A stretch of 50,988 nucleotides of DNA, from sequence record ON185587.1; one strand, 5' to 3'. Below, piece by piece: positions 1 through 42,926 of this stretch. Source of the stretch: Escherichia phage EC167. Numbering within the stretch: position 1 is the stretch's first letter; every line of letters begins with the position of its first letter. Below the pieces are notes generated by a model, which was not told the DNA's origin, did no database searches, and was given only the letters and a program-made list of their open reading frames with translations. Position numbers and translations under genes: made by a program.

Positions 1-528
1 ATGGCTAAAAACGTTGAGCCTGCTGTAAAGGCATTAAATTTCAAAGAGTTATATAATAAAACCTATGGCGATATTGTTACGCTAAACAACCGCCACAAGT
101 ACACGCCGGAACAGGTTTTTGATATGGCGATCCGCTATTTCACTTGGGCCGAAGAGAATCACATTCAGGCGGCTGAAACTGCTTCCTTTCAGGGTGACGT
201 GTACGAGAGCAGAGTTTACAAGCCTCGCGTTTTCACGGTTAACGGATTCAGCTTGTATCTCGGCGTGACTGAGGCCGCCGTAAGCAAATGGCGTAAAGAG
301 CCTGGATTCTGCGATGTGATGGAGTTTGTTGATAAAGTAATTTACGAGCAAAAATTCCAGCTTGCGGCAAATAACATGATTAATGCTGGATTTATCGGTA
401 AAGAGATCGGAGTAGAGAAGCCAGCAACAGTGAGCGTCGAAGCGAGCGCGGCAGCTAATGCAAGCATTGACGCAGTAACTGTCGATGAGGTGAAAGAGGC
501 TGTTATTGATATTCTGGAGCAACTTTAA
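1..528 (+). CDS. terS: terminase small subunit
   Basis: 175 aa ORF directly upstream of and overlapping (ATGA) the large terminase; helix-turn-helix-like segment (GFSLYLGVTEAAVSKWRK); RBS and promoter for it lie at the window end (circular genome). Confidence 0.7.
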   Translation: MAKNVEPAVKALNFKELYNKTYGDIVTLNNRHKYTPEQVFDMAIRYFTWAEENHIQAAETASFQGDVYESRVYKPRVFTVNGFSLYLGVTEAAVSKWRKEPGFCDVMEFVDKVIYEQKFQLAANNMINAGFIGKEIGVEKPATVSVEASAAANASIDAVTVDEVKEAVIDILEQL

Positions 529-5875: not shown

Positions 5876-5888
5876 TGGAGAAATTATT

Positions 5889-8744: not shown

Positions 8745-9112
8745 ATTACAATGAGATTGCAAGAATGGCTACGGCTGGGATTAACTTTTTCAGCGACGCT
8801 AACGGTATGTTTAAGTGCATCACGCAGCAGGGCGGAGTTGAGATTATCGGAGGAGAGGAAGTTACCAAGCCGGAGATTTCAGTGATGATAAAGGGGCTTG
8901 TTAGATCTCCGAGGACTAGAGAGGTTGACGGTGAAACAATCCGAGTAACCGACAAGTTGGGGATATTCACCAATGAAACTGAGATCAAAAATGGTTATCA
9001 GATTGAAATTGATGGCCAACGTTATGTTGTCGTTGAAGCAAGACCAGTCAGGCAGACTAACATCACGGCAGCTTATCGTCCGATATTAAGGAGGATTGCT
9101 GTGCATGGCTAA
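8732..9112 (+). CDS. head-tail joining protein
   Basis: 126 aa, overlaps upstream gene, AGGAG RBS. Confidence 0.45.
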
Positions 9113-9548
9113 AAACTACACGATAAGGGAATTTCACGGCAACATTGATGCGTGGATAAACGCCGTTGATAGTGGACTAAAAGATTGCGTGGAATTGTTC
9201 GCCGAAAAAGTACACACAGATTTGGTTAAGCGTTCTCCGGTAGATACTGGTCGTTACCGTGGAAACTGGCAGGTAACAGCAAATAAGCCGCCATTGTATG
9301 CGCTTAATCAGTACGATAAGCACGGAGACAAAACGATCGCGGAAGGCAAGCGCGCCATATACGCGATTTTACGAGGTGGCGGCGCAGTAAGAGCCATTTA
9401 TTTTTCTAACATGCTTATTTATGCTAACGCGCTTGAGTACGGTCATTCAAAACAAGCGCCAGCGGGTGTGCTTGGGATTGTAGCGGTTAAGTTGAGATCT
9501 TATATGGCTGAAGCAATAAAAGAGTCGAGGGCTAAAAATGCACTATGA
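9105..9548 (+). CDS. tail completion / neck protein
   Basis: AAGGAGG RBS; start GTG 9101 or ATG 9105. Confidence 0.45.
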   Translation: MAKNYTIREFHGNIDAWINAVDSGLKDCVELFAEKVHTDLVKRSPVDTGRYRGNWQVTANKPPLYALNQYDKHGDKTIAEGKRAIYAILRGGGAVRAIYFSNMLIYANALEYGHSKQAPAGVLGIVAVKLRSYMAEAIKESRAKNAL

Positions 9549-9936
9549 ATTAATGCTATCGGCGCGCAAGGCGCTGGCGACTGAATACGAAAGCAGATTC
9601 ATGATCGCTTATGAAAACGTAGAGTTTACGCCACCTGGTGACGGTTCGCCGTGGTTGAAGTTTGACTATGCCGAAGTTGACACAGAATACTTGTCATTGG
9701 ATCGCAAATGCGTTTCTTATATCGGAATGATTCAGGTTGGTATTGTGTTTGCACCAGGTTACGGAACTGACAGGCCGCGTGTTCTCGCTAAAGAGATTGC
9801 GCAATTCTTTTACGATGGTAAAATGTTGGAGCACGGGTATATATATGAGGGTGCAAGAGTTCACAAACCGCTCAAGAGTGAAAGCGGCTGGATTCTCCCA
9901 ATAAGGTTTTATGTTAGAATTGAAACAAAGGAGTAA
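9538..9936 (+). CDS. tail terminator-like protein
   Basis: 132 aa, overlaps upstream gene; position before major tail gene. Confidence 0.4.
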   Translation: MHYELMLSARKALATEYESRFMIAYENVEFTPPGDGSPWLKFDYAEVDTEYLSLDRKCVSYIGMIQVGIVFAPGYGTDRPRVLAKEIAQFFYDGKMLEHGYIYEGARVHKPLKSESGWILPIRFYVRIETKE

Positions 9937-9941
9937 AAATT

Positions 9942-10604
9942 ATGCATTTACCAAATGGATCGCAAATTTTCGTTGAGAGCAATCGCGGAAGCGAAATCCA
10001 AGCAACAGCAGTGTCAAACGCCAAAGATCCTGTTTTCACTGTTGCATCTGGCGGCACTGCGTACAAGAAAGGTGATTATGTGATCATCACTGCGTCTTCT
10101 TGGGGTAAGCTGATTGATCGTGTTATGCGTGTAAAGGCTAACGGTGAAGAAACAAGCGTGACTCTTGAAGGTGTAGATACTACTGATCCGAACGTTTTCC
10201 CGACTGGCGGTACTGCATCTTTTGCCAAAATTGATGCATGGACTGAGATCCCTTGCGTTCAAGATTTGTCGCAGGACGGCGGCGAACAGCAATACTACAC
10301 TTATCAGTGTTTGGCAGACGATCAGGAACAGCAGTTACCTACCTATAAGAGCGCCGTTTCTCTTACCTACACTTTTGCGCACGAATACGATAACGCGATC
10401 TATCCGTTACTTCGTGCAGCAGATGAATCCGGCGCTGTAACGGCGCTTCGTATGTATGTACCAAAAGCAAAAGAGATGCGTTGCTGGGCTGGCGTCCTTT
10501 CGTTCAACGAGATCCCACAGACCACGGTTAACGAAATGGAGACTGTTTCCCTTTCTGTATCCCTGAAAGGTCGATTCACCTTCCTACCTTCTCAAGTAAC
10601 ATAA
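9942..10604 (+). CDS. major tail protein
   Basis: 220 aa, strong RBS AAAGGAG, followed by a strong terminator and then the chaperone/tape-measure genes. Confidence 0.6.
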   Translation: MHLPNGSQIFVESNRGSEIQATAVSNAKDPVFTVASGGTAYKKGDYVIITASSWGKLIDRVMRVKANGEETSVTLEGVDTTDPNVFPTGGTASFAKIDAWTEIPCVQDLSQDGGEQQYYTYQCLADDQEQQLPTYKSAVSLTYTFAHEYDNAIYPLLRAADESGAVTALRMYVPKAKEMRCWAGVLSFNEIPQTTVNEMETVSLSVSLKGRFTFLPSQVT

Positions 10605-10608
10605 TAAC

Positions 10609-10633
10609 AAGGGGCGTTGCGCCCCTTTTTTTG
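10609..10633 (+). terminator. intrinsic terminator after major tail gene
   Basis: GGGGCG-TTGC-GCCCC followed by TTTTTTTTG. Confidence 0.7.
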
Positions 10634-10670
10634 TTACTGTACAATCATGCTACACGATTCATAATCAATT

Positions 10671-10691
10671 CTTTTAACAAAAAGTGCTATC
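10671..10691 (-). promoter_or_regulatory. conserved intergenic motif, inverted, directly upstream of chaperone RBS
   Basis: Plus strand reads CTTTTAACAAAAAGTGCTATC then AAGGAG RBS. Confidence 0.4.
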
Positions 10692-10703
10692 AAGGAGAAA
10701 AAA

Positions 10704-11021
10704 ATGTCAAAAATGAAATTGACTCTTGGGCCGCTTCCTGACTTTAAATTACCAGTGAAATTTGCAATGCCTAACGGAGAAGATCAAACAATTGTATTTA
10801 CGGTTCGTCATCGCAAAACAAGTGAGATTCACGAGCGATACACTTCGGACAATCCAATGAGCGATGTTGAAATGATCACCTTCCTTGCTTCCGGTTGGAA
10901 TCTTGATGATGAATTTAACGAAGAAAATATTAAACAGCTTCTTGATTATTACCCAGCAACAGCAATTGGGTTAACTAGCGCATATATGAAAGCGCTTGCG
11001 GGGCAGCGAGTAAAAAACTAA
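10704..11021 (+). CDS. tail assembly chaperone (G-like)
   Basis: 105 aa ORF immediately upstream of tape measure; ends just after an A-AAA-AAC slippery heptamer. Confidence 0.7.
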   Translation: MSKMKLTLGPLPDFKLPVKFAMPNGEDQTIVFTVRHRKTSEIHERYTSDNPMSDVEMITFLASGWNLDDEFNEENIKQLLDYYPATAIGLTSAYMKALAGQRVKN

Positions 11022-11332
11022 AAAGGGCGGTTTACCTGTTTTATCAGAAACCGCCGACAGATGCAGAGCTTGAGGCCGTTGGCCTTACAAGGGCAGACTA
11101 TGAAGGAGAAGATCCGCCAGAGGTTATATTTGATGAAAGCATGATGCAATCATGGGATATATTTTGCGCAATGCAAACGCAATGGAGATGTTCAGGCGGT
11201 GGCGCTTACGGATTTGATTATAATGTCTTGCCTATGCTTTTTGAGATTTACAAGGTTGAGGATCGCGAGATGGCGCTAAACGACTTGCGAGTCATGGAAC
11301 AAAAAGCACTTGAAATGATGCATTCAAAATAA
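10704..11332 (+). CDS. tail assembly chaperone GT-like fusion via programmed -1 frameshift
   Basis: Slippery A_AAA_AAC about 11011-11017, 1-2 codons before the G stop; the -1 frame is open from there to the stop at 11332 and contains the ORF-track 11141-11332 ORF. Confidence 0.6.
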
Positions 11333-11355
11333 GCGCCTGCGGGCGCTTTTTTATT
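11332..11355 (+). terminator. hairpin + U-tract upstream of tape-measure RBS
   Basis: GCGCC-TGC-GGGCGC followed by TTTTTTATT. Confidence 0.5.
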
Positions 11356-11371
11356 ACCTGGAGGATTAACA

Positions 11372-14044
11372 ATGTCAGAACAATACGCAGGCTTGACGCT
11401 TGGGGTTGACGTTTCTCAACTCAACAATGCTGTAAAGTCTTTGCAGCAATTAAAGAAGGCAAACGACGACGCAAAGGGAAGCGTTGAGGGTTTTGTTGAT
11501 TCCGAGGTTGTTGCAAGGCAAAGAGCCAAACAATTGGCTGAGGAGTTGGCAAAGCAGAAACAAGAATTTAAAGCAATTCAGTCGGCAATAGATCCGACAG
11601 CAAGCAAAATGGATAAGTTGCGCCATGCTGCGACACAGCTTGATGCGCTTTGGAAAAAAGGCATTGTGCCGGATGATACATTCTTTGAGTTAGGATCAAT
11701 TCTTGAGACGCAGCAAAATAAACTAATCGCAACTAAGAAGGCGCTAACTGAAGAAGGCCGCGCGGCGATTGAGGAAGCAAAAAATAAGGCAAGAGCAGAG
11801 GCTGAGGCAAGAAAGTTTATTGCGGCATTGCAGGCGCAAGCTGACGCAGCGGAAAAAACAAAATCAGAGCTTGTCGAAATGAGAGCCGCACAACTTGGAG
11901 TTAGTGCAGAGGCCGCGCCATTTATTGCAAAAATGAAGGAGCAGGAAAAACAAGCCTCAAAACTTGGCGTTTCTATGGGGCAATATAAGCAAGCAATGGC
12001 GCAATTGCCAATGCAGATCACTGATGTTGTTACTTCTCTTGCTTCAGGTATGCCAGTATGGATGGTTGCAATCCAGCAGGGCGGGCAAATCAAGGACTCA
12101 TTCGGCGGTGTTGCTAATACGTTTAAAGTTCTAATGACATTTGTCACGCCTTTAAGTGTAGGAATGACGGCACTGACTGGTGCGCTTGGTTATGCTGCAT
12201 ATAATGCATACAAAGCAAATGCGCAACTGAAGGAGATCACAAAAACCGTTCAGGAGGCAACTGGTCTTTCTGGTGATTTTGCGGAGCGGATTGCAACTGG
12301 AATCCAGGCGCTATCTGACAAGACAGGTGAGAGCGCCGACAATCTGGCAAAGGCATACATAAGCACTAAGGATGGAGCAACCGAGGCCATACAAAAACTC
12401 GTCGATGTTGGATTTACCTATGACGAAGCAAAGGCAAAAGTAAACGAATACAAAAACGCATCAAGTTTTGTAAGTCTTAACAATGAAATTGCTGATCACA
12501 AAAACAAGGTTCTTGAGCTTGGCGATTCATGGTATGCGGTCTTAAAAGCAAAACGTGATTATGCTTCACCGTCAGGCGGGCTGTTGGGGAAAGAGCTTGG
12601 TTATGTGAATCCAATGCTGCAATTTGCGAAGAACACCTATGAGGATATAGGAAAGATCGTAAAAGATGCGAATAAGGATATGGCAGAACGAGCAGCACGC
12701 ATCGACAGAGAAAACCTTTCCTTAAACAGAGTGCGAGCGGCGCAAGAGGCTTTAAACAAAGCCATTGAAGATCAGAAAAATGTAGCAAGGACAGCAGACG
12801 AAGAGTTGAAAAAACGAGCGGCTGAGAACGTGGAGTTCAGGCGAAAAGAGCTTGAAGAGGCGAAGAAGGCGCAGCAGCAAAAGGAGAAAGTTGGTGGAGT
12901 TGTAAAAGCACCAACAGAGCAGCTTGATAAGGAGCTATATGTTCTCAAGGCGCAACTTGAAACTCTGAAAGAGCACCGAACTGTAAATGATGTTATTTCA
13001 CGCCAGAGGCAATCTTTGTGGAGCATTGAAAAGCAGATCCAGATCCTTGAGGAAGCGCAAAGCAAGCGCAAGCTGACAGGGGCGGAACAGGCGCTACTTA
13101 ACGAGCAAAAAGCTGTTCTTGCTATGGCAAAAGAAAATGCCGAGATAGGCGATCAGATTGTTTTGCAACAGAGAAAGAATAAGCAATATCGGGACGGGCT
13201 TAAATTCATTCAGCAAACATCAGATGCTATTGACGCTATGAACTTGCGACAGTCTGGAGCTACAGATCTGCAAATCCAGCGAGAGCTTGAGTTGAAGAAG
13301 TTGCGAACTGATTATGTTGCTGGCGGCGGTAGTATCGACGATGAAATTTATCAGCAGATGGAAGCAAAGCTGAAGGAGTATTACGCCACTGAGGATCAGC
13401 TTAGAAATAATTGGATTGCAGGAGCAAAAAACGCATGGGAGGTTTACGGACAAGATGCAATGGATATGTACGGCAACGTGCAAGATATTGCAAGCGAGGC
13501 GCTCAACGGCCTAACCAACCAAATGGCTACATTCCTTGCAACAGGTAAGGCAAACTTTAAGAGCTTTGCAACGTCAATCATCCAAATGATTATTCAGATG
13601 ATCACAAAGATGGTTATCTTTAATGCCATATCTGGTGCGATTGGCGGTGACACTTGGACGATTGGAAGTCTTCTTAAAAATGTTGGATTTGCAACTGGTG
13701 GATACACTGGCGACGGCGGGAAGTATGAGCCAGCAGGTGTTGTCCATAAAGGCGAGTTTGTCATGACGAAGGAGGCCACGAAGCGGATCGGGGTTGGAAA
13801 TCTTTACAAAATGATGCGCGGTTATGCAAATGGCGGCGTTGTTGGCGGCACTTCATACACTGGAGGAGGAGTTTCATCTGGAGCAACAAATCTTAATATT
13901 GGCGGGATCAGCGTTGATATTAACAACGGAAGCGATCCGAAAGGGTTGGAGACTGGCGTAAAAATGATTTTCACTGATATGATTAAGCGTTCCTGTACGC
14001 AGGGTGGGGAAGTTTACGAATTTGTTATGTCTAAGCGGGGGTGA
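11372..14044 (+). CDS. tail tape measure protein
   Basis: 890 aa, extensive coiled-coil N-terminal half, Gly-rich C-terminal segment, position after G/GT. Confidence 0.85.
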
Positions 14045-14100
14045 TAGTGAAACTTGAGCAATTCAAATGGTGCACGCAAACGCAAGGAGGCGGCGGCACT

Positions 14101-14397
14101 ATGACCACATCAAATAACGACAGGGAAATCTCATTTGGTAATGGTTACACGCAGGTTGCGTCAGGAGGGTTTAACACGGTACGCAGGGAGTTTTCCATTG
14201 TCTATGTTGGCAAGGATTACAGAGACGTTGTTGACTTCCTGGATGGACACAGGCTGAAGCCGTTTTTATGGTTTATGCCTGACGGTCAACCTGGTCTATT
14301 CAGGGTAAAATCTGGTAGCGTTGGATTAACTCCAATATCAGCAACCGTTCAGGAAGTGAAAGCAACATTTACTGAGCAATTTACATCAATGCAATAA
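14101..14397 (+). CDS. minor tail protein (lambda M-like)
   Basis: Strong RBS AAGGAGG before ATG at 14101 (ORF-track start 14041 is GTG extension); position after tape measure. Confidence 0.55.
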   Translation: MTTSNNDREISFGNGYTQVASGGFNTVRREFSIVYVGKDYRDVVDFLDGHRLKPFLWFMPDGQPGLFRVKSGSVGLTPISATVQEVKATFTEQFTSMQ

Positions 14398-14399
14398 TT

Positions 14400-14426
14400 C
14401 AAGCCGCCTTTGTGCGGCTTTTTTAT
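14400..14426 (+). terminator. intrinsic terminator-like hairpin
   Basis: AGCCGC-CTTTGT-GCGGCT followed by TTTTTTATT. Confidence 0.55.
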
Positions 14427-14458
14427 TGATGATACAATGCACGAAAGGAGGTGCAATT

Positions 14459-15220
14459 ATGGCTAATGAAACAACAGGTCGCGCGGATCTTGAAAATTGT
14501 CTGCAAAGCCTTTACCCTGGCGAGATTATCACGCTAATTGAAATTGACGGCACAAAGTTTGGCGCAAACATTTACCGCATACACAATGAGAACATCTCAT
14601 ACACTGCGGAAGAATTGTTGCAGGCGCGAGAAACTGGAGTTCTCCCGCCGAAAGAGATTACATTCCGTGGTGAGGTTTACGGCGCGCGCCCGTTCGGAAT
14701 ATCTGGAATCAACTTCACAAGCAACGGAAAGGCTGATAAGCCACAATTGATACTATCAAACCTTGACAGCCAGGTGAGCGCGATGATTCGCAACTTTAAC
14801 GGCATGATGCAAGCTAAGGTTACAATCTGGATCACGCCAGCGGAATTAATGGGTAAAGATGGCAGCATTAAAGACGGAGCTTCAAGAAAGCTGGTTTACT
14901 ACATTGAGCGCCCAAGCCATTACAATAGAATGATGGCGAAATTTGACCTGACATCGCCTTATGATATGGATGGAATAATGATTCCTCCGCGAATAACTCA
15001 AAGCGTTTGTTATTGGGCGCAGCGTGGATGGTATCGAAGCGGAAAAGGTTGCGGATACAATGGATCGCGAATGTTTGACAAAGACAACAATCCTGTAACC
15101 GATCCATCTCAAGACTTTTGCGCAGGAACTGTAACAGCGTGCAAACTTCGTTTTGGTGCAGATCAGCAGCTTGATTTTGGCGGTGCACCAGTAGCAAGCC
15201 TGTTAAGGAGAAATCAGTGA
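14459..15220 (+). CDS. minor tail protein (lambda L-like, Cys cluster)
   Basis: RBS AAGGAGG before ATG 14459; C-terminal four-Cys region (CYWAQ..GCGY..FCAG..TAC) as in lambda L. Confidence 0.6.
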   Translation: MANETTGRADLENCLQSLYPGEIITLIEIDGTKFGANIYRIHNENISYTAEELLQARETGVLPPKEITFRGEVYGARPFGISGINFTSNGKADKPQLILSNLDSQVSAMIRNFNGMMQAKVTIWITPAELMGKDGSIKDGASRKLVYYIERPSHYNRMMAKFDLTSPYDMDGIMIPPRITQSVCYWAQRGWYRSGKGCGYNGSRMFDKDNNPVTDPSQDFCAGTVTACKLRFGADQQLDFGGAPVASLLRRNQ

Positions 15221-15951
15221 TGATTAGTGCAAAAATAAAACTTGAAATAATGCAGCACGTAAAAGATGAATACCCGCGCGAGGCGTGCGGTGTTATCACT
15301 CAAAAATCACGCGTGCAAAAATACCACCGCATAACCAACGTGCATGATGATCCTGAAAATCATTTTGAGATGGACGCAATTGAATACGTTGAAGCGTGTG
15401 AAAGTGGCGAGCTTATTGCTGTTGTACATAGCCACACTGGAGACGGGGCAAGTACAATCCCAAGCGCCCATGACACATGCATGTGTGATGAAATGGGGGT
15501 TTCATGGGTTATTGTGTCATGGCCTGAAGGTGATATGAGAATCATTGAGCCTGAATCTCGTCCTCTGATTGGTCGCCCGTGGTCGCTTGGGGCGTATGAT
15601 TGCTGGGGGCTTATTATGGCATGGCACAAGCAACATGGTGTTATCCTGAATGATTTCAGGAAACCATATGAATGGTGGAAGCCTGAGCACGGTGAAAATC
15701 TTTACCAGGAAAATTATCTGAAAGAGGGTTTTGTTGAAACAGGAGAGCCGCCAAAACCTGGTGATATGGTTATCTTTCAGCTTTCCGCGCCAGTGTGGAA
15801 TCATGCAGGCATTTATCTTGGCAACAATCAGTTGCTTCATCATGCCTTTGGCAAGTTGTCAAGGGTTGATTTGTATTCTGGATGGTATCAGGAACATGCA
15901 AAAATTGTTTGTAGACATAAGGATCTGAAATATGACTTTGAAGGTAATTAA
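15220..15951 (+). CDS. tail assembly protein (lambda K-like; MPN/JAB + NlpC/P60)
   Basis: JAMM-like HSHTGDGASTIPSAHD motif and C-terminal Cys/His papain-like segment (YDCWGL...H); overlaps L-like stop. Confidence 0.7.
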   Translation: MISAKIKLEIMQHVKDEYPREACGVITQKSRVQKYHRITNVHDDPENHFEMDAIEYVEACESGELIAVVHSHTGDGASTIPSAHDTCMCDEMGVSWVIVSWPEGDMRIIEPESRPLIGRPWSLGAYDCWGLIMAWHKQHGVILNDFRKPYEWWKPEHGENLYQENYLKEGFVETGEPPKPGDMVIFQLSAPVWNHAGIYLGNNQLLHHAFGKLSRVDLYSGWYQEHAKIVCRHKDLKYDFEGN

Positions 15952-16528
15952 GTTATCTGGATCTTTAGGCAGAAGATTTGGAGTATTTCATAAGCTGGCT
16001 GTTGACTCATACCCTGAAGCAATCCGCGCACTATCTTCGCAGGTGGAAGGATTCAAGGACTACATGCAAAGCGAAGTAGGATCGCGAATGCGTTACGCTG
16101 TATTTGTTGATGGCAAGAACGTTGGACAGCACAATGAAAAAGCGTGGAAATGTGCAAAGGAAGTGAGGATTATTCCAATCCCAACAGGTTCAAAGTCTGG
16201 TGGGTTGTTTCAGGTTGTTCTTGGGGCGGTTATTATGGCGACTGCATTTTTTACTGGTGGAGCTTCACTTGCTTTGATGGGTGCCTTTGCATCGTCTGCT
16301 TTCATGATGGGTGGCGCTATGGTACTTGGCGGTGTAATGCAAATGATCTCACCGCAGCAAGGAGGATCAAGATTGTCATCCCAATCAGCAGAAAACAAGC
16401 CGTCTTATGCTTTCGGCGGCGCTGTCAACACAACGGCAGCAGGATACCCAATACCATTGCCATATGGTCAAAGGACCGTTGGCGGTGCTATCTGGTCGGC
16501 TGGAAGCTATGCAGAGGATAAGGCTTAA
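15932..16528 (+). CDS. tail assembly protein (lambda I-like)
   Basis: 198 aa, overlaps K-like gene, hydrophobic Gly/Ala-rich C-terminal half; position before J. Confidence 0.55.
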   Translation: MTLKVIKLSGSLGRRFGVFHKLAVDSYPEAIRALSSQVEGFKDYMQSEVGSRMRYAVFVDGKNVGQHNEKAWKCAKEVRIIPIPTGSKSGGLFQVVLGAVIMATAFFTGGASLALMGAFASSAFMMGGAMVLGGVMQMISPQQGGSRLSSQSAENKPSYAFGGAVNTTAAGYPIPLPYGQRTVGGAIWSAGSYAEDKA

Positions 16529-28005: not shown

Positions 28006-28482
28006 TTAGCTATTCGTGCTGTTATCACCTTTGTAGAATCGTCCTCCTGGTTCGTAGTCTGAATTTTTGACTACGCGCAACATTTCGTATTTGTCGCAAC
28101 GGGTAGTAAGAGGCTTGCCGTTAGAATCAAACCGCAGATCTGGACGACAAAATGATGCGCGGTATCCTTTGCACCCATTATATTTGTAGTCGTTATGCAC
28201 CTTTTGTGCTCCAGCGGCTGAAATCATGCCACGCTTTCGCCACTGGTTAACGACTTGCTGAGATACGCGTAGACGTCGAGCCATAGCAGGAACACCGCCG
28301 TAATACTCGATCAGAATGTCAAGGCGAGATTTCAGGCTTGCTTTTACCTCATCTCGCAGGATAAGAAATCCGGTTCGGTGTTTTCGTGGCTTTTTGTCTT
28401 TACCTCGTCGCGTTCCGTTGTTACCGTTAATAGTGCGCTTGTCGATCTCACCCGTAGACACTGCAATTCGTGCATCTTTCAT
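28006..28482 (-). CDS. DNA-binding protein with Cro/YdaS-like helix-turn-helix and C-terminal Cys-rich region
   Basis: 158 aa; basic N-terminus, GGVPAMARRLRVSQQVVNQWRKRG HTH-like segment, four Cys in C-terminal 50 aa. Confidence 0.45.
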   Translation of the reverse strand: MKDARIAVSTGEIDKRTINGNNGTRRGKDKKPRKHRTGFLILRDEVKASLKSRLDILIEYYGGVPAMARRLRVSQQVVNQWRKRGMISAAGAQKVHNDYKYNGCKGYRASFCRPDLRFDSNGKPLTTRCDKYEMLRVVKNSDYEPGGRFYKGDNSTNS

Positions 28483-41514: not shown

Positions 41515-41787
41515 TTACTTCTTGATCTCCTCACTGATAAATTTCAGCACCTGACGCAAGAAAACCTCGTTGCTGATAGTCGCTGGCAATTCTTCTTTCA
41601 CTTCTTGCGGCAGATAGATATTGCCGTGCCAGGTCAAGCAATCGTAGTTGATACGATAAGAGCAAAGCAACTCGCAATCGTTATCTCCTTCCCAAATGCA
41701 GAGTTGCAGAACATCGCCAAAATCTTCAACAGTCAGATCCAGACCGTGACGCTTAGCGAAATTGAAAGTGGTTTTGCTGATGTTCAT
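41515..41787 (-). CDS. hypothetical protein, first gene of minus-strand early operon
   Basis: 90 aa; AGGAG RBS; motif-type promoter upstream. Confidence 0.45.
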   Translation of the reverse strand: MNISKTTFNFAKRHGLDLTVEDFGDVLQLCIWEGDNDCELLCSYRINYDCLTWHGNIYLPQEVKEELPATISNEVFLRQVLKFISEEIKK

Positions 41788-42458
41788 TGCTATCTCCTGA
41801 TCGGTTCGTTTTGATGTGTGTAATGTACCCGATCAGGTGGCCTGAGTTTTAACAAAAAGTGCTATTTGACGGTTAGCGCCAGGATTGCGATCGAAATAAT
41901 CATAAGTAATCATTCGTAATCAAATCACGTCAAAATGATGATTGCCTTTGCAAATTTGATGAGAAAAGCAATCACGTTTAATCATTGGTTGCAGGGGAGA
42001 TAGTGAAACCTTCCCCTCTCGCCTCACTTTTTTGCCTGGCTGTCAGTGGTTGTTATGTTCCGTTCCTGCGTGTTCTTTTGTTGACCTTCCGCAAAATACG
42101 ATAACAAAAAATAACAAACAATACCTATATAATACATTGAAAAATAAGGATTATTTATTTATATGTATCTATATATTCTCTTTTGTTATCTTGGTTATTG
42201 TGGTATTTGGTGGGGGTATATAGTTTTTGTGTATCTGTATGTGTGTATGGGTATGTAGGGGTATATATATCTATATGGCGCTTTCCGCGAGAAAACTTCG
42301 ATAACAAGCAATGATAACATTGATTTATAAGGAAAAATAACGCCTATATTGTTATTGTGCCACCATATAAAATTGATAAAACACGCGGGAACAAGAAAAA
42401 ACAGTTGACACATTAAATAGCATTATTGATAATGCCCACACCTAACAACCAGGAGGCA
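41788..42458. promoter_or_regulatory. AT-rich non-coding control region 2 (divergent promoters, iterons, dyads)
   Basis: 671 bp without credible ORF; TAATCAT repeats phased at 10 bp (41897, 41907, 41917) plus further copies; hairpin + U-tract at about 42003-42045; GT-rich repeats homologous to region 1; GGGAACAAGAAAAA box; TTGACA-17-GATAAT promoter for early genes. Confidence 0.6.
41846..41866 (-). promoter_or_regulatory. conserved intergenic motif (minus orientation)
   Basis: Minus strand: AATAGCACTTTTTGTTAAAAC upstream of 41787 gene. Confidence 0.5.
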
Positions 42459-42926
42459 GAAATGAGCGAGCAATCATTCACTGACACGCTGCGCCGTGCC
42501 GCTATTATGCTGGCTAATGGCGAGGAAGAGACGATCAAGATTCCTGACGCGTATTTGCAGGTCCACATGTTCGGCAAGAAGTCGGCAAGCAATCCGGCGG
42601 CCTACATTCGCCAGATCATGAGTCGAGTGCCAGAAGTCGCCGAGCGGGGGCGCGTATCCGTTACCCGTGACGTTTACGGGCCGGAAGATGAAAACTTCGG
42701 TAGCACTTTCTACGAGGTGCGGATTGTTGAAGGCCGTCGCAAGGTTTACAACAAAGAGGCACTGGAAAGGGCAGTGCGCCAGGCTAAGCGCAAGGTTGCA
42801 GAGGCGATCATTGATATGTCACCAAACCTGGCAAACTATGCGCCGGAAGAGTATGAAACGTTATCAAAGGCCGTCGCTGACTTTCACGCGATGATCAAAA
42901 AAACTTTCCTGGAGGATGAACAATGA
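42459..42926 (+). CDS. hypothetical early protein (first gene of plus-strand early operon)
   Basis: 155 aa from ATG 42459 (RBS CAGGAGG); immediately downstream of TTGACA-17-GATAAT promoter. Confidence 0.5.
   Translation, partial: EMSEQSFTDTLRRAAIMLANGEEETIKIPDAYLQVHMFGKKSASNPAAYIRQIMSRVPEVAERGRVSVTRDVYGPEDENFGSTFYEVRIVEGRRKVYNKEALERAVRQAKRKVAEAIIDMSPNLANYAPEEYETLSKAVADFHAMIKKTFLEDEQ

What the first reader, a model, noticed from the sequence alone, without database searches (positions are those of the whole stretch)
41890..42045. Ten-bp-phased TAATCAT iterons and a hairpin-terminated mini-transcript candidate in hub 2
TAATCAT occurs at 41897, 41907 and 41917 (exactly one helical turn apart), with further direct and inverted AATCA(T/C) copies up to about 41985. 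Phased iterons are typical of origin-binding initiators or cooperative regulators. Immediately downstream a 22-codon ORF (MMIAFANLMRKAITFNHWLQGR) ends inside a hairpin (GGGGA...TCCCC) followed by a T6 tract at about 42003-42045, which could be a small RNA or leader peptide terminator.
Basis: seen in the sequence. Interest (0 to 1): 0.6.

Follow-up and report, generated by a model that had tools for sequence, protein, structure and literature searches.

The report
Probable phage DNA-packaging start site
A real, conserved cluster of short TAATCA repeats in a T1-like coliphage lies where the packaged DNA of related phages begins, so it is most likely part of the signal for starting genome packaging and not a small RNA gene or leader peptide.

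Summary
The window is a complete T1-like coliphage genome (Drexlerviridae, Warwickvirus). The finding lies in the 675-bp gap between the leftward and rightward early operons.

The repeat cluster is real. It has 7 AATCA in 100 bp, the densest such window in the genome, and no simulated genome reached 7. The invariant core is TAATCA, not TAATCAT, and the copy at 41917 is TAATCAA.

The mini-transcript idea fails. I found no promoter, no ribosome-binding site, no Rfam hit and no canonical terminator. The fold is no better than shuffles. The T6 tail is TTTTCC in all five relatives that cover it.

Best reading (about 0.45): this is the packaging-initiation (pac) region. The genome ends of TLS (restriction-mapped), T1 and SU57 all fall at the homologous place, as do the record breaks of haarsle and XY3. 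That place is 80-165 bp beyond the leftward promoter-like element, near a semi-conserved G-rich box (41994-42010). TGATT/AATCA motifs are 4-8-fold enriched there in seven otherwise unalignable module types.

The repeat block occurs in exactly the 60 phage records that carry this small terminase. Primase and helicase give a 60-record class of the same size, so that link is genus-level only.

Rivals are an upstream operator for the leftward promoter (0.25) and origin iterons (0.1). A better origin candidate lies 100-400 bp to the right.

The parts
41847..41867 (-). Copy of the Drexlerviridae 21-nt direct-repeat element (aaATAGCACtttTTGtTAAAA). It is the promoter-like element (reads as an extended -10, TGnTAAAA) for the leftward operon that starts at 41787. 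It anchors the module but is not part of the repeats.
   Evidence: Pattern search: 21 hits in the window against 3 expected, and this copy has 0 mismatches. The element is described for TLS in PMC11447400.
41897..41922 (+). Three TAATCA cores at 41897, 41907 and 41917, exactly 10 bp apart. This is the left cluster of the proposed terminase-recognition array. It lies about -57 to -82 from the inferred leftward transcription start.
   Evidence: Invariant in 7 type-A sequences.
41923..41928 (+). AATCAC, a weak fourth copy.
   Evidence: Present in the window but mutated in L005 and orkinos.
41931..41943 (-). IHF-like site AATCATCATTTTG (1 mismatch to WATCAANNNNTTR). It contains the inverted AATCAT copy and lies between the two repeat clusters.
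   Evidence: Invariant in relatives. Three such 1-mismatch hits occur in the 675-bp gap, so this is a lead only.
41939..41974 (.). Inverted repeat TGATTGCCTTT / AAAAGCAATCA around a 14-bp centre, in the spacer between the clusters.
   Evidence: the repeat finder I25, 91% complementary. The 41969 C-to-T change in relatives weakens it.
41968..41985 (+). Right cluster: (T/C)AATCAC at 41969 and TAATCAT at 41979, 11 bp apart and roughly in helical phase with the left cluster.
   Evidence: offsets 71 and 82 from the first copy.
41994..42010 (+). G-rich box GGGGAGATAGTGAAACC, with recognisable counterparts in several other module types. It marks the boundary between type-specific DNA on its left and more conserved DNA on its right. 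Record ends of haarsle and XY3 fall at it.
41935..42003 (+). 22-codon ORF (MMIAFANLMRKAITFNHWLQGR). It is judged not to be a gene.
42029..42034 (+). T6 run, judged not to be a terminator tail. It is 11 nt from the stem and reads TTTTCC in relatives.
42054..42055 (.). Mosaic breakpoint. All 60 related records share the DNA to the left; only 15 share the DNA to the right.
1..528 (+). Small terminase subunit (P22 gp3 family), the proposed trans-acting partner. It is encoded about 9 kb downstream, at the end of the rightward operon.
   Evidence: Pfam GP3_package E=3.8e-11. PDB 3P9A E=1.7e-15. Annotated as terS in relatives.

Best explanation
The TAATCA/AATCA array (41897-41985) and the adjacent G-rich box (41994-42010) form the packaging-initiation (pac) region of this headful-packaging T1-like phage. 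Inferred mechanism: late in infection the gp3-family small terminase ring binds the short repeats. There are three on one helical face at 41897-41917 and two more about five turns away, possibly with a host bending protein between them. This bends or wraps the DNA. The large terminase then makes the first cut nearby, at or just left of the G-box. Packaging runs rightward through the early genes towards terS and terL. Shown here: the repeats are real, unique in the genome and conserved. The same motif class is enriched at the same place in every module type examined. Experimentally derived genome ends of relatives fall there. Inferred, not shown: that TerS is the binder, and where the cut falls in this phage.
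For: (1) Position. The T1 record opens with its annotated 2.8-kb terminal repeat inside the homologous gap, 162 bp from the last leftward gene. The start of the TLS record is the restriction-mapped pac end: HindIII at 5876 and EcoRV at 2733 match the paper's 5,882-bp and about 2.7-kb pac fragments. It lies 195 bp from the last leftward gene. The SU57 end (PhageTerm plus an abrupt coverage step) lies 239 bp from it. The haarsle record starts exactly at its G-box. The XY3 record ends inside this window's G-box, at 42002. (2) Motif. In the 170 nt after the promoter-like element of seven unalignable module types, AATCA/TGATT occurs 28 times against 6.3 expected and is present in 7 of 7. TGATTG occurs 13 times against 1.6, and TAATCA 10 against 1.3. 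(3) The cluster is the densest in this genome. (4) All 60 phage records with this TerS (97.7% identity or more) carry this block at 94.6-98% identity, although 44 of them have different DNA from 42055 onward. (5) TerS differs between module types mainly in one short segment, aa 88-96, while the rest is conserved. (6) Clustered short repeats flanking the cut are how the SPP1 pac site is described (PMC9611059). From my memory, P1 pac is built the same way.
Against: There are no read-start or restriction data for this phage. The TLS and T1 ends are mapped only to about +/-50-100 bp, and TLS was then assigned by analogy with P22. The haarsle and XY3 breaks could be assembler accidents, 2 among roughly 100 records. 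The TerS-module concordance is not specific: primase and the DUF3987 helicase each give a 60-record class of 95% identity or more with a gap below, and most backbone genes split the same way. The exact 10-bp phasing is peculiar to this module type. The three phased copies occupy the promoter-proximal slot that in type B and T1 holds a different, palindromic motif (TTATTCC/GGAATAA). They could therefore be an operator, while pac proper lies nearer the G-box. In vitro sequence-specific TerS-pac binding has been hard to show, even for P22.
Confidence: 0.45

Rival explanations
1. The three phased TAATCA copies are an upstream operator, activator or UP-like (bent-DNA) array for the leftward early promoter-like element at 41847-41867. 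A phage or host protein would bind them cooperatively on one helical face to switch the leftward operon on or off.
For: The copies are centred at about -59.5, -69.5 and -79.5 from the inferred start near 41840. This is inferred from reading the repeat element as an extended -10. The stretch is 68-70% A+T. In type B and T1 the same slot holds a palindromic TTATTCC...GGAATAA arrangement that looks like an operator. The TLS authors also raised enhancer or UP roles for sequences around these elements.
Against: None of the other roughly 17 good copies of the promoter-like element has such a cluster. The next densest AATCA window has 5 and is not at an element. No type-specific regulator is encoded next to it: the left neighbours are 94-96% identical across types and the right neighbours vary within the type. 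The HTH regulator at 28006-28482 has nearly the same recognition helix in types A and B. No protein is shared by haarsle and T1 but absent from type A. This reading does not explain why genome ends map here.
Confidence: 0.25
2. The repeats are iterons of the replication origin, bound by a phage initiator (primase, DUF3987 helicase or another protein).
For: They are direct repeats at helical spacing in a non-coding hub where GC skew changes sign. The replication proteins split into a 60-record class of the same size as the module's. The origin of T1-like phages is unknown.
Against: The core is only 6-7 bp, with 2.6 tandem copies. The neighbour is a G-rich box, not an unwinding element. There is no DnaA box in the cluster. 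GC skew simply follows gene orientation. A much better candidate lies to the right: 7 ATAACA/TGTTAT copies (0.37 expected) in both orientations around a 76-84% A+T core, with 4 tandem TGTTAT in haarsle.
Confidence: 0.1
3. A short + strand transcript or leader peptide (22-codon ORF) ends at the GGGGA/TCCCC hairpin and T6 tract.
For: The ORF, the inverted repeat and a T6 run exist. T1 has a longer hairpin followed by T5 at the equivalent place.
Against: There is no sigma-70-like promoter upstream and no terminator by scan. The T run is 11 nt from the stem and reads TTTTCC in five relatives. Folding is not better than shuffles, with z from +0.39 to -1.56. The best Rfam hits are far below threshold. 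There is no Shine-Dalgarno sequence. Both substitutions in the ORF are nonsynonymous. The T1 authors annotated no terminator there.
Confidence: 0.03
4. The cluster has no sequence-specific function. It would be a small local duplication in an A+T-rich spacer, conserved only because the 60 relatives are so close.
For: The relatives are 95-98% identical here, about the same as neighbouring coding DNA, so conservation within the genus is weak evidence.
Against: The same motif class is enriched at the same position in seven unalignable module types from three subfamilies. The cluster is the genome-wide maximum.
Confidence: 0.07

Closest known systems
pac regions of coliphages T1 and TLS (Drexlerviridae), mapped by restriction analysis
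   Same: Same genomic slot: the gap between the last leftward and first rightward early genes, 160-240 bp from the leftward gene. Same flanking promoter-like element, the same TGATT/AATCA-rich DNA and a G-rich box nearby.
   Different: The sequence is not alignable to the left of the G-box. T1 has GATGTGATTGTTGC twice, 30 bp apart. TLS has GATTT runs plus TAGACCGATTGGTC twice. The published sequence assignments differ from mine: 'AGATTT' by P22 analogy for TLS, and ATATA repeats for T1 as cited second-hand. Neither names the TGATT/AATCA repeats.
Phage P1 pac site (hexamer TGATCA/G repeats in two clusters flanking the cut, IHF-assisted, Dam-controlled). Recalled from memory, not checked here.
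   Same: Two clusters of a short hexamer (3-4 plus 2 copies) are separated by about 45 bp, with an IHF-like site between them. The hexamer TGATTA/G differs from the P1 hexamer by one base.
   Different: The core carries no GATC, so there is no methylation switch in this module; the only GATC nearby is at 41889. The terminase is unrelated to PacA/PacB. The resemblance is architectural only.
Bacillus phage SPP1 pac (pacL-pacC-pacR)
   Same: Multiple TerS contact points flank the first cut, and the site is used about once per concatemer series (review PMC9611059).
   Different: The TerS family is different. Binding, bending and the cut position are all untested here.
Phage P22 pac (single 22-bp asymmetric site inside gene 3)
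   Same: The small terminase belongs to the same family (Pfam GP3_package; 3P9A E=1.7e-15).
   Different: The window has no P22-pac-like sequence. The best match has 7 of 22 mismatches and none lies in terS. The mapped ends of T1 and TLS lie about 8-9 kb upstream of terS, not within it.
Iteron-type replication origins (lambda ori, plasmid iterons)
   Same: Direct repeats at helical spacing.
   Different: The core is much shorter, there are few copies, no adjacent unwinding element and no DnaA boxes. See the membership test.

Membership tests
Headful pac site with clustered recognition repeats (SPP1 / P1 type) | The end of the first packaged genome maps at or next to the site | tested here: inconclusive
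   Met at the homologous place in relatives: TLS restriction map, T1 terminal-repeat annotation, SU57 coverage step. For this phage type there is only the XY3 record break at 42002. No read data are available.
Headful pac site with clustered recognition repeats (SPP1 / P1 type) | Short repeated motifs in clusters, unique in the genome | tested here: met
   7 AATCA per 100 bp, the genome maximum, with 0 of 200 and 0 of 5000 simulations reaching it. Left cluster of 3, right cluster of 2.
Headful pac site with clustered recognition repeats (SPP1 / P1 type) | Specificity co-varies with the small terminase | tested here: inconclusive
   The 60 records with the module are the same 60 records with this TerS. 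Four TerS types match four module types in IMG/VR. However, primase and helicase give a 60-record split of the same size, so this is genus-level only.
Headful pac site with clustered recognition repeats (SPP1 / P1 type) | Bound by TerS and cut by TerL; confers high-frequency transduction on a plasmid | not testable with these tools
   Needs EMSA or footprinting, end mapping and a transduction assay.
P22-type pac (22-bp site inside terS) | gp3-family small terminase | tested here: met
   Pfam PF16677, 43.5 bits against a cut-off of 29.4. 3P9A E=1.7e-15.
P22-type pac (22-bp site inside terS) | pac-like sequence within the terS gene | tested here: not met
   The best matches in the window have 7 or more of 22 mismatches, and none lies in 1-528.
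Iteron-type replication origin | Several direct repeats of about 17-22 bp | tested here: not met
   6-7-bp core in a 10-bp period, 2.6 copies, TRF score 38.
Iteron-type replication origin | Adjacent A+T-rich unwinding element and/or DnaA boxes | tested here: not met
   The cluster is followed by a G-rich box (48% A+T). The A+T-rich core (76-84%) starts about 100 bp from the last AATCA copy and has its own repeats. The only DnaA-like hit, with 1 mismatch, is at 41815.
Intrinsic (rho-independent) terminator | G+C-rich stem followed within 0-2 nt by a U run | tested here: not met
   The scan found none. There is an 11-nt gap. The U run is not conserved. Fold z is +0.39.
Described RNA families (Rfam 15) | Score at or above the family gathering threshold | tested here: not met
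   Best overlapping hits score 19.9 and 18.6 bits against thresholds of 50 and 35. They are eukaryotic snoRNA models with E above 3.
Translated small ORF / leader peptide | Ribosome-binding site and a coding-type substitution pattern | tested here: not met
   No Shine-Dalgarno sequence in the 20 nt before 41935. Both substitutions are second-position and nonsynonymous.

The most novel reading that the evidence does not exclude
T1-like phages share a so far undescribed pac architecture: clusters of TGATT(G/A) hexamers, in varying number, spacing and orientation, between the last leftward promoter-like element and a G-rich box where the first cut is made. A variable segment of a gp3-family small terminase would read them. 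This would give the T1 pac site its first sequence definition. T1 pac has been mapped since the 1980s but never defined in sequence. It would also show that P22-family small terminases can use a remote, multi-repeat, P1-like site rather than a single site inside their own gene. An extension is that terminase binding at -57 to -82 of the leftward early promoter also shuts that operon off late in infection.
Probability: 0.35. Interest if true: 0.55.

Novelty: new member of a known kind. Interest (0 to 1): 0.4.

Why it matters
T1-like phages are common laboratory and fermentation contaminants, therapy candidates and generalized transducers. It is already known that pac lies somewhere in this untranslated gap, but its sequence determinants are not. 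The published guesses (AGATTT for TLS, ATATA repeats for T1) rest on analogy. A defined pac signal would let genomes be opened consistently. It would help predict transduction and pseudo-pac use, and it would allow packaging-specific engineering such as phagemids or cross-genus packaging barriers. It would also separate pac from the neighbouring origin-like element in the same 675-bp hub. If the operator reading is right instead, the array is a handle on the unexplored early regulation of these phages.

Tried and rejected
1. Rfam in evalue mode gave only sub-threshold eukaryotic snoRNA or miRNA noise.
2. The promoter and terminator scan found nothing in the finding region. The only strong promoter is at 42405-42433.
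3. RNA folding of five sub-regions on both strands gave z from +0.39 to -1.56, not significant.
4. I first took the TerS-module co-variation as strong evidence: the 60 records match exactly, and TerS drops from 99% to 73% while TerL stays at 92-94% and the flanking protein at 93-97%. I then downgraded it. The whole backbone is 75-88% identical between the two genera, and primase and the DUF3987 helicase give the same 60-record class size. The apparent TerL discordance of 2019SD1 is unusable because that record is flagged UNVERIFIED_ASMBLY.
5. I looked for a P22-pac-like sequence and found none.
6. I tested whether phage lambda has a TGATT cluster between genes P and Q, where I recall T1 starting packaging on lambda DNA. 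There are only clusters of 3 there, and similar ones occur elsewhere, so the result is inconclusive.
7. I searched for a protein shared by haarsle and T1, which share the TTATTCC/GGAATAA motif, but absent from type A. None was found.
8. A loose G-box pattern scan of IMG/VR returned random hits. Exact G-box scans of IMG/VR and of metagenomes returned only the contigs already known plus two uninformative ones.
9. The MSK PhageTerm coordinate (36,862) could not be transferred to the record that is held.
10. The Rtp paper, which discusses T1 pac, is not in the library.
11. The P22 specificity mutations in gp3 could not be verified in the library, so I make no claim that the variable TerS segment matches them.

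Full report
**Context.** The window is a complete T1-like coliphage genome opened at the small-terminase start codon: TerS 1-528, TerL 528-2096. It is about 98% identical to Escherichia phage tiwna (Drexlerviridae, Tempevirinae, Warwickvirus) over the region searched. The finding lies in a 675-bp non-coding gap, 41788-42461. To its left is the last gene of a leftward operon (41515-41787). To its right is the first gene of the rightward operon (42462-42926, DUF7174), which runs on to terS.

The rightward operon has a near-consensus sigma-70 promoter at 42405-42433. The leftward gene is preceded, at 41847-41867 on the minus strand, by a perfect copy of the 21-nt direct repeat described for TLS (aaATAGCACnnnTTGnTAAAA). 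That repeat occurs 21 times in this genome against 3 expected. By inference it reads as an extended -10 promoter.

**Observation.**
- TAATCAT is at 41897 and 41907. The copy at 41917 is TAATCAA. A third exact TAATCAT is at 41979.
- AATCAC is at 41923 and 41970. An inverted AATCAT is at 41938-41943.

The cluster is not chance. It has 7 AATCA in 100 bp against a genome mean of 0.53. It is the unique genome maximum (next best 5). None of 200 Markov genomes and none of 5000 simulated intergenic regions reached it.

Six close relatives show that the constrained core is TAATCA.
- The three phased cores are invariant.
- The seventh base varies, and the T at 41903 is unique to this window.
- The 41923 copy is lost in two relatives.
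- Five of the six relatives have T at 41969, which makes a further TAATCA.

The offsets are then 0, 10, 20, 71 and 82 bp, all within about 2.5 bp of one helical face.

**The mini-transcript idea.** Nothing supports it.
- There is no promoter-like site upstream on the + strand and no terminator-like site.
- There is no Rfam hit near threshold.
- Folding energies are indistinguishable from shuffles.
- The T run begins 11 nt after the stem and is TTTTCC in all five relatives that cover it.
- There is no Shine-Dalgarno sequence before the ATG.
- The only two substitutions in the ORF are second-position and nonsynonymous.

**What the place is.** In T1-like phages the gap between the two early operons is where the packaged genome begins.
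- The T1 reference record opens with its annotated 2.8-kb terminal repeat 162 bp upstream of the last leftward gene.
- The TLS record opens 195 bp upstream of its last leftward gene. This start is experimental: the paper reports a submolar pac-HindIII fragment of about 5,882 bp and an EcoRV sub-fragment of about 2.7 kb, and the record has HindIII at 5876 and EcoRV at 2733.
- The SU57 end, chosen from PhageTerm plus an abrupt coverage step, is 239 bp upstream.
- Two records whose starts seem to be raw assembly breaks also open here. haarsle (Nextera library, CLC assembly) starts exactly at GAGGGGATAGAG. XY3 ends at window position 42002, inside GGGGAGATA|GTGAAACC.

In window coordinates these five ends project to roughly 41950-42030, which is inside the finding.

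**Comparative anatomy.** The DNA between the promoter-like element and the G-rich box comes in unalignable types. Type A is this window. Type B is the Hanrivervirus type. Two further types come from IMG/VR, and T1, TLS and SU57 each have their own. From the G-box rightward, types A and B align again.

An unbiased k-mer count over the 170 nt after the element in all seven types gave these top enrichments.

| Motif | Observed | Expected |
|---|---|---|
| AATCA/TGATT (present in 7 of 7 types) | 28 | 6.3 |
| GATTG | 19 | 4.1 |
| TTGCA | 21 | 4.8 |
| TGATTG | 13 | 1.6 |
| TAATCA | 10 | 1.3 |

The exact 10-bp phasing, however, is special to type A.

**Link to the terminase, and its limits.** The type A block (41850-42054) occurs in exactly 60 phage records at 94.6-98% identity. 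No more distant homologues were detected. Those are the very same 60 records whose TerS is 97.7% identical or more, and nothing falls between 80 and 95%. Forty-four of them have unrelated DNA from 42055 onward. In IMG/VR, four TerS types match four module types. TerS differs between types mainly in aa 88-96.

This is not specific evidence. Most backbone genes are 75-88% identical between the two genera. Primase and the DUF3987 helicase each give a 60-record class of the same size, with a gap below. Co-variation therefore cannot separate a pac site from an origin or an operator.

**Best explanation.** My best reading is the packaging-initiation region, with confidence about 0.45.
- The repeats would be terminase recognition elements arranged as two clusters about five turns apart, with an IHF-like site between them.
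- The first cut would fall near the G-box, and packaging would run rightward.

The architecture resembles SPP1 pac and, from memory, P1 pac, whose hexamer TGATCA/G differs from TGATTA/G by one base. It differs from P22, whose gp3-family terminase uses one 22-bp site inside its own gene. No such sequence exists here.

**Rivals.**
- **Upstream operator (0.25).** The three phased copies sit about -57 to -82 from the inferred leftward start. In type B and T1 that slot holds a palindromic TTATTCC/GGAATAA motif, so they may be an upstream operator, with pac proper nearer the G-box. Against this, no other copy of the promoter-like element has such an array, and I found no cognate type-specific regulator.
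- **Origin iterons (0.1).** These are unlikely. The core is short, no unwinding element is adjacent and the cluster holds no DnaA box. A far better candidate lies to the right: 7 ATAACA/TGTTAT copies around a 76-84% A+T core.
- **Small RNA or leader peptide (0.03)** and **no function (0.07).**

**Verdict.** The repeat observation is confirmed with a one-base correction. "Phased binding sites" is a fair description, but the likely partner is the packaging machinery and not an initiator. The mini-transcript is rejected. That pac lies in this gap is already known for T1 and TLS. New here are the naming of the TGATT/AATCA clusters plus the G-box as its sequence signature, and the family-wide enrichment. 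The finding is of moderate interest, and virion end mapping would test it directly.

Noticed in passing
window 42040-42400: The right half of the same gap holds a second, separate repeat system. There are 7 ATAACA/TGTTAT copies (0.37 expected) in both orientations around a 76-84% A+T core with ATATA runs. haarsle has four tandem CTGTTAT at 9-10 bp spacing. orkinos and L005 have the same left module, TerS, primase and helicase. In place of this right half they carry an alternative cassette with GTTCAC/GTTAC/GTGAACA motifs, and their first rightward gene (DUF7174, 42462-42926) is a different allele, 29% identical. This looks like an origin or an autoregulated early-promoter cassette whose repeats track the adjacent gene. 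From memory, GTTCAC resembles the phage P4 origin repeats; I could not verify this.
   Followed up: partly
window, 21 sites, e.g. 2093, 10672, 30983, 32053, 38931, 41847, 43191, 43654, 46068: The 21-nt Drexlerviridae direct repeat ATAGCACnnnTTGnTAAAA is present 21 times against 3 expected, mostly upstream of genes and in their orientation. It reads like an extended -10 promoter (TGnTAAAA). The HTH regulator at 28006-28482 has an almost invariant recognition helix across types and could be its binder.
   Followed up: partly
window 9096-16528: The tail-gene block is 97-99% identical at the protein level to Hanrivervirus haarsle, but only 74-91% identical to Warwickvirus orkinos. This indicates a recent exchange of the tail module between genera.
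   Followed up: no
window 262-288 (TerS aa 88-96): The small terminase is conserved except for a short segment that differs in every module type: VTEAAVSKW, LSASVLEKW, FSESVTLKW, WSKCALEKW; in T1 ASEAAIIKW; in TLS FSGTALAKW. It aligns with P22 gp3 residues 77-85 and is a candidate DNA-specificity determinant.
   Followed up: partly
window 42405-42433: The near-consensus sigma-70 promoter (TTGACA-17-GATAAT) of the rightward operon overlaps a degenerate copy of the direct-repeat element (AAATAGCATTATTGATAATG).
   Followed up: no
L019 56-121 (T1 record positions 56-121): T1 has a long imperfect hairpin (GGGGGATC...ACCAGGTTCGCCTGGT...ATCTCC) followed by T5 just right of its G-box. A second, leftward-facing copy of the direct-repeat element follows immediately. 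The T1 record annotates neither.
   Followed up: no
GenBank records MG0656xx ('Campylobacter phage A1xx') and MT360681 (2019SD1): About 20 records named Campylobacter phage are T1-like coliphage sequences, some only fragments. They are probably contaminants or mislabelled. 2019SD1 is flagged UNVERIFIED_ASMBLY and its divergent TerL is likely an artefact.
   Followed up: no
window 41931-41943 (-): A near-consensus IHF site, AATCATCATTTTG, lies between the two TAATCA clusters and is invariant in relatives. Two other 1-mismatch IHF-like sites are at 42130 and 42366.
   Followed up: no
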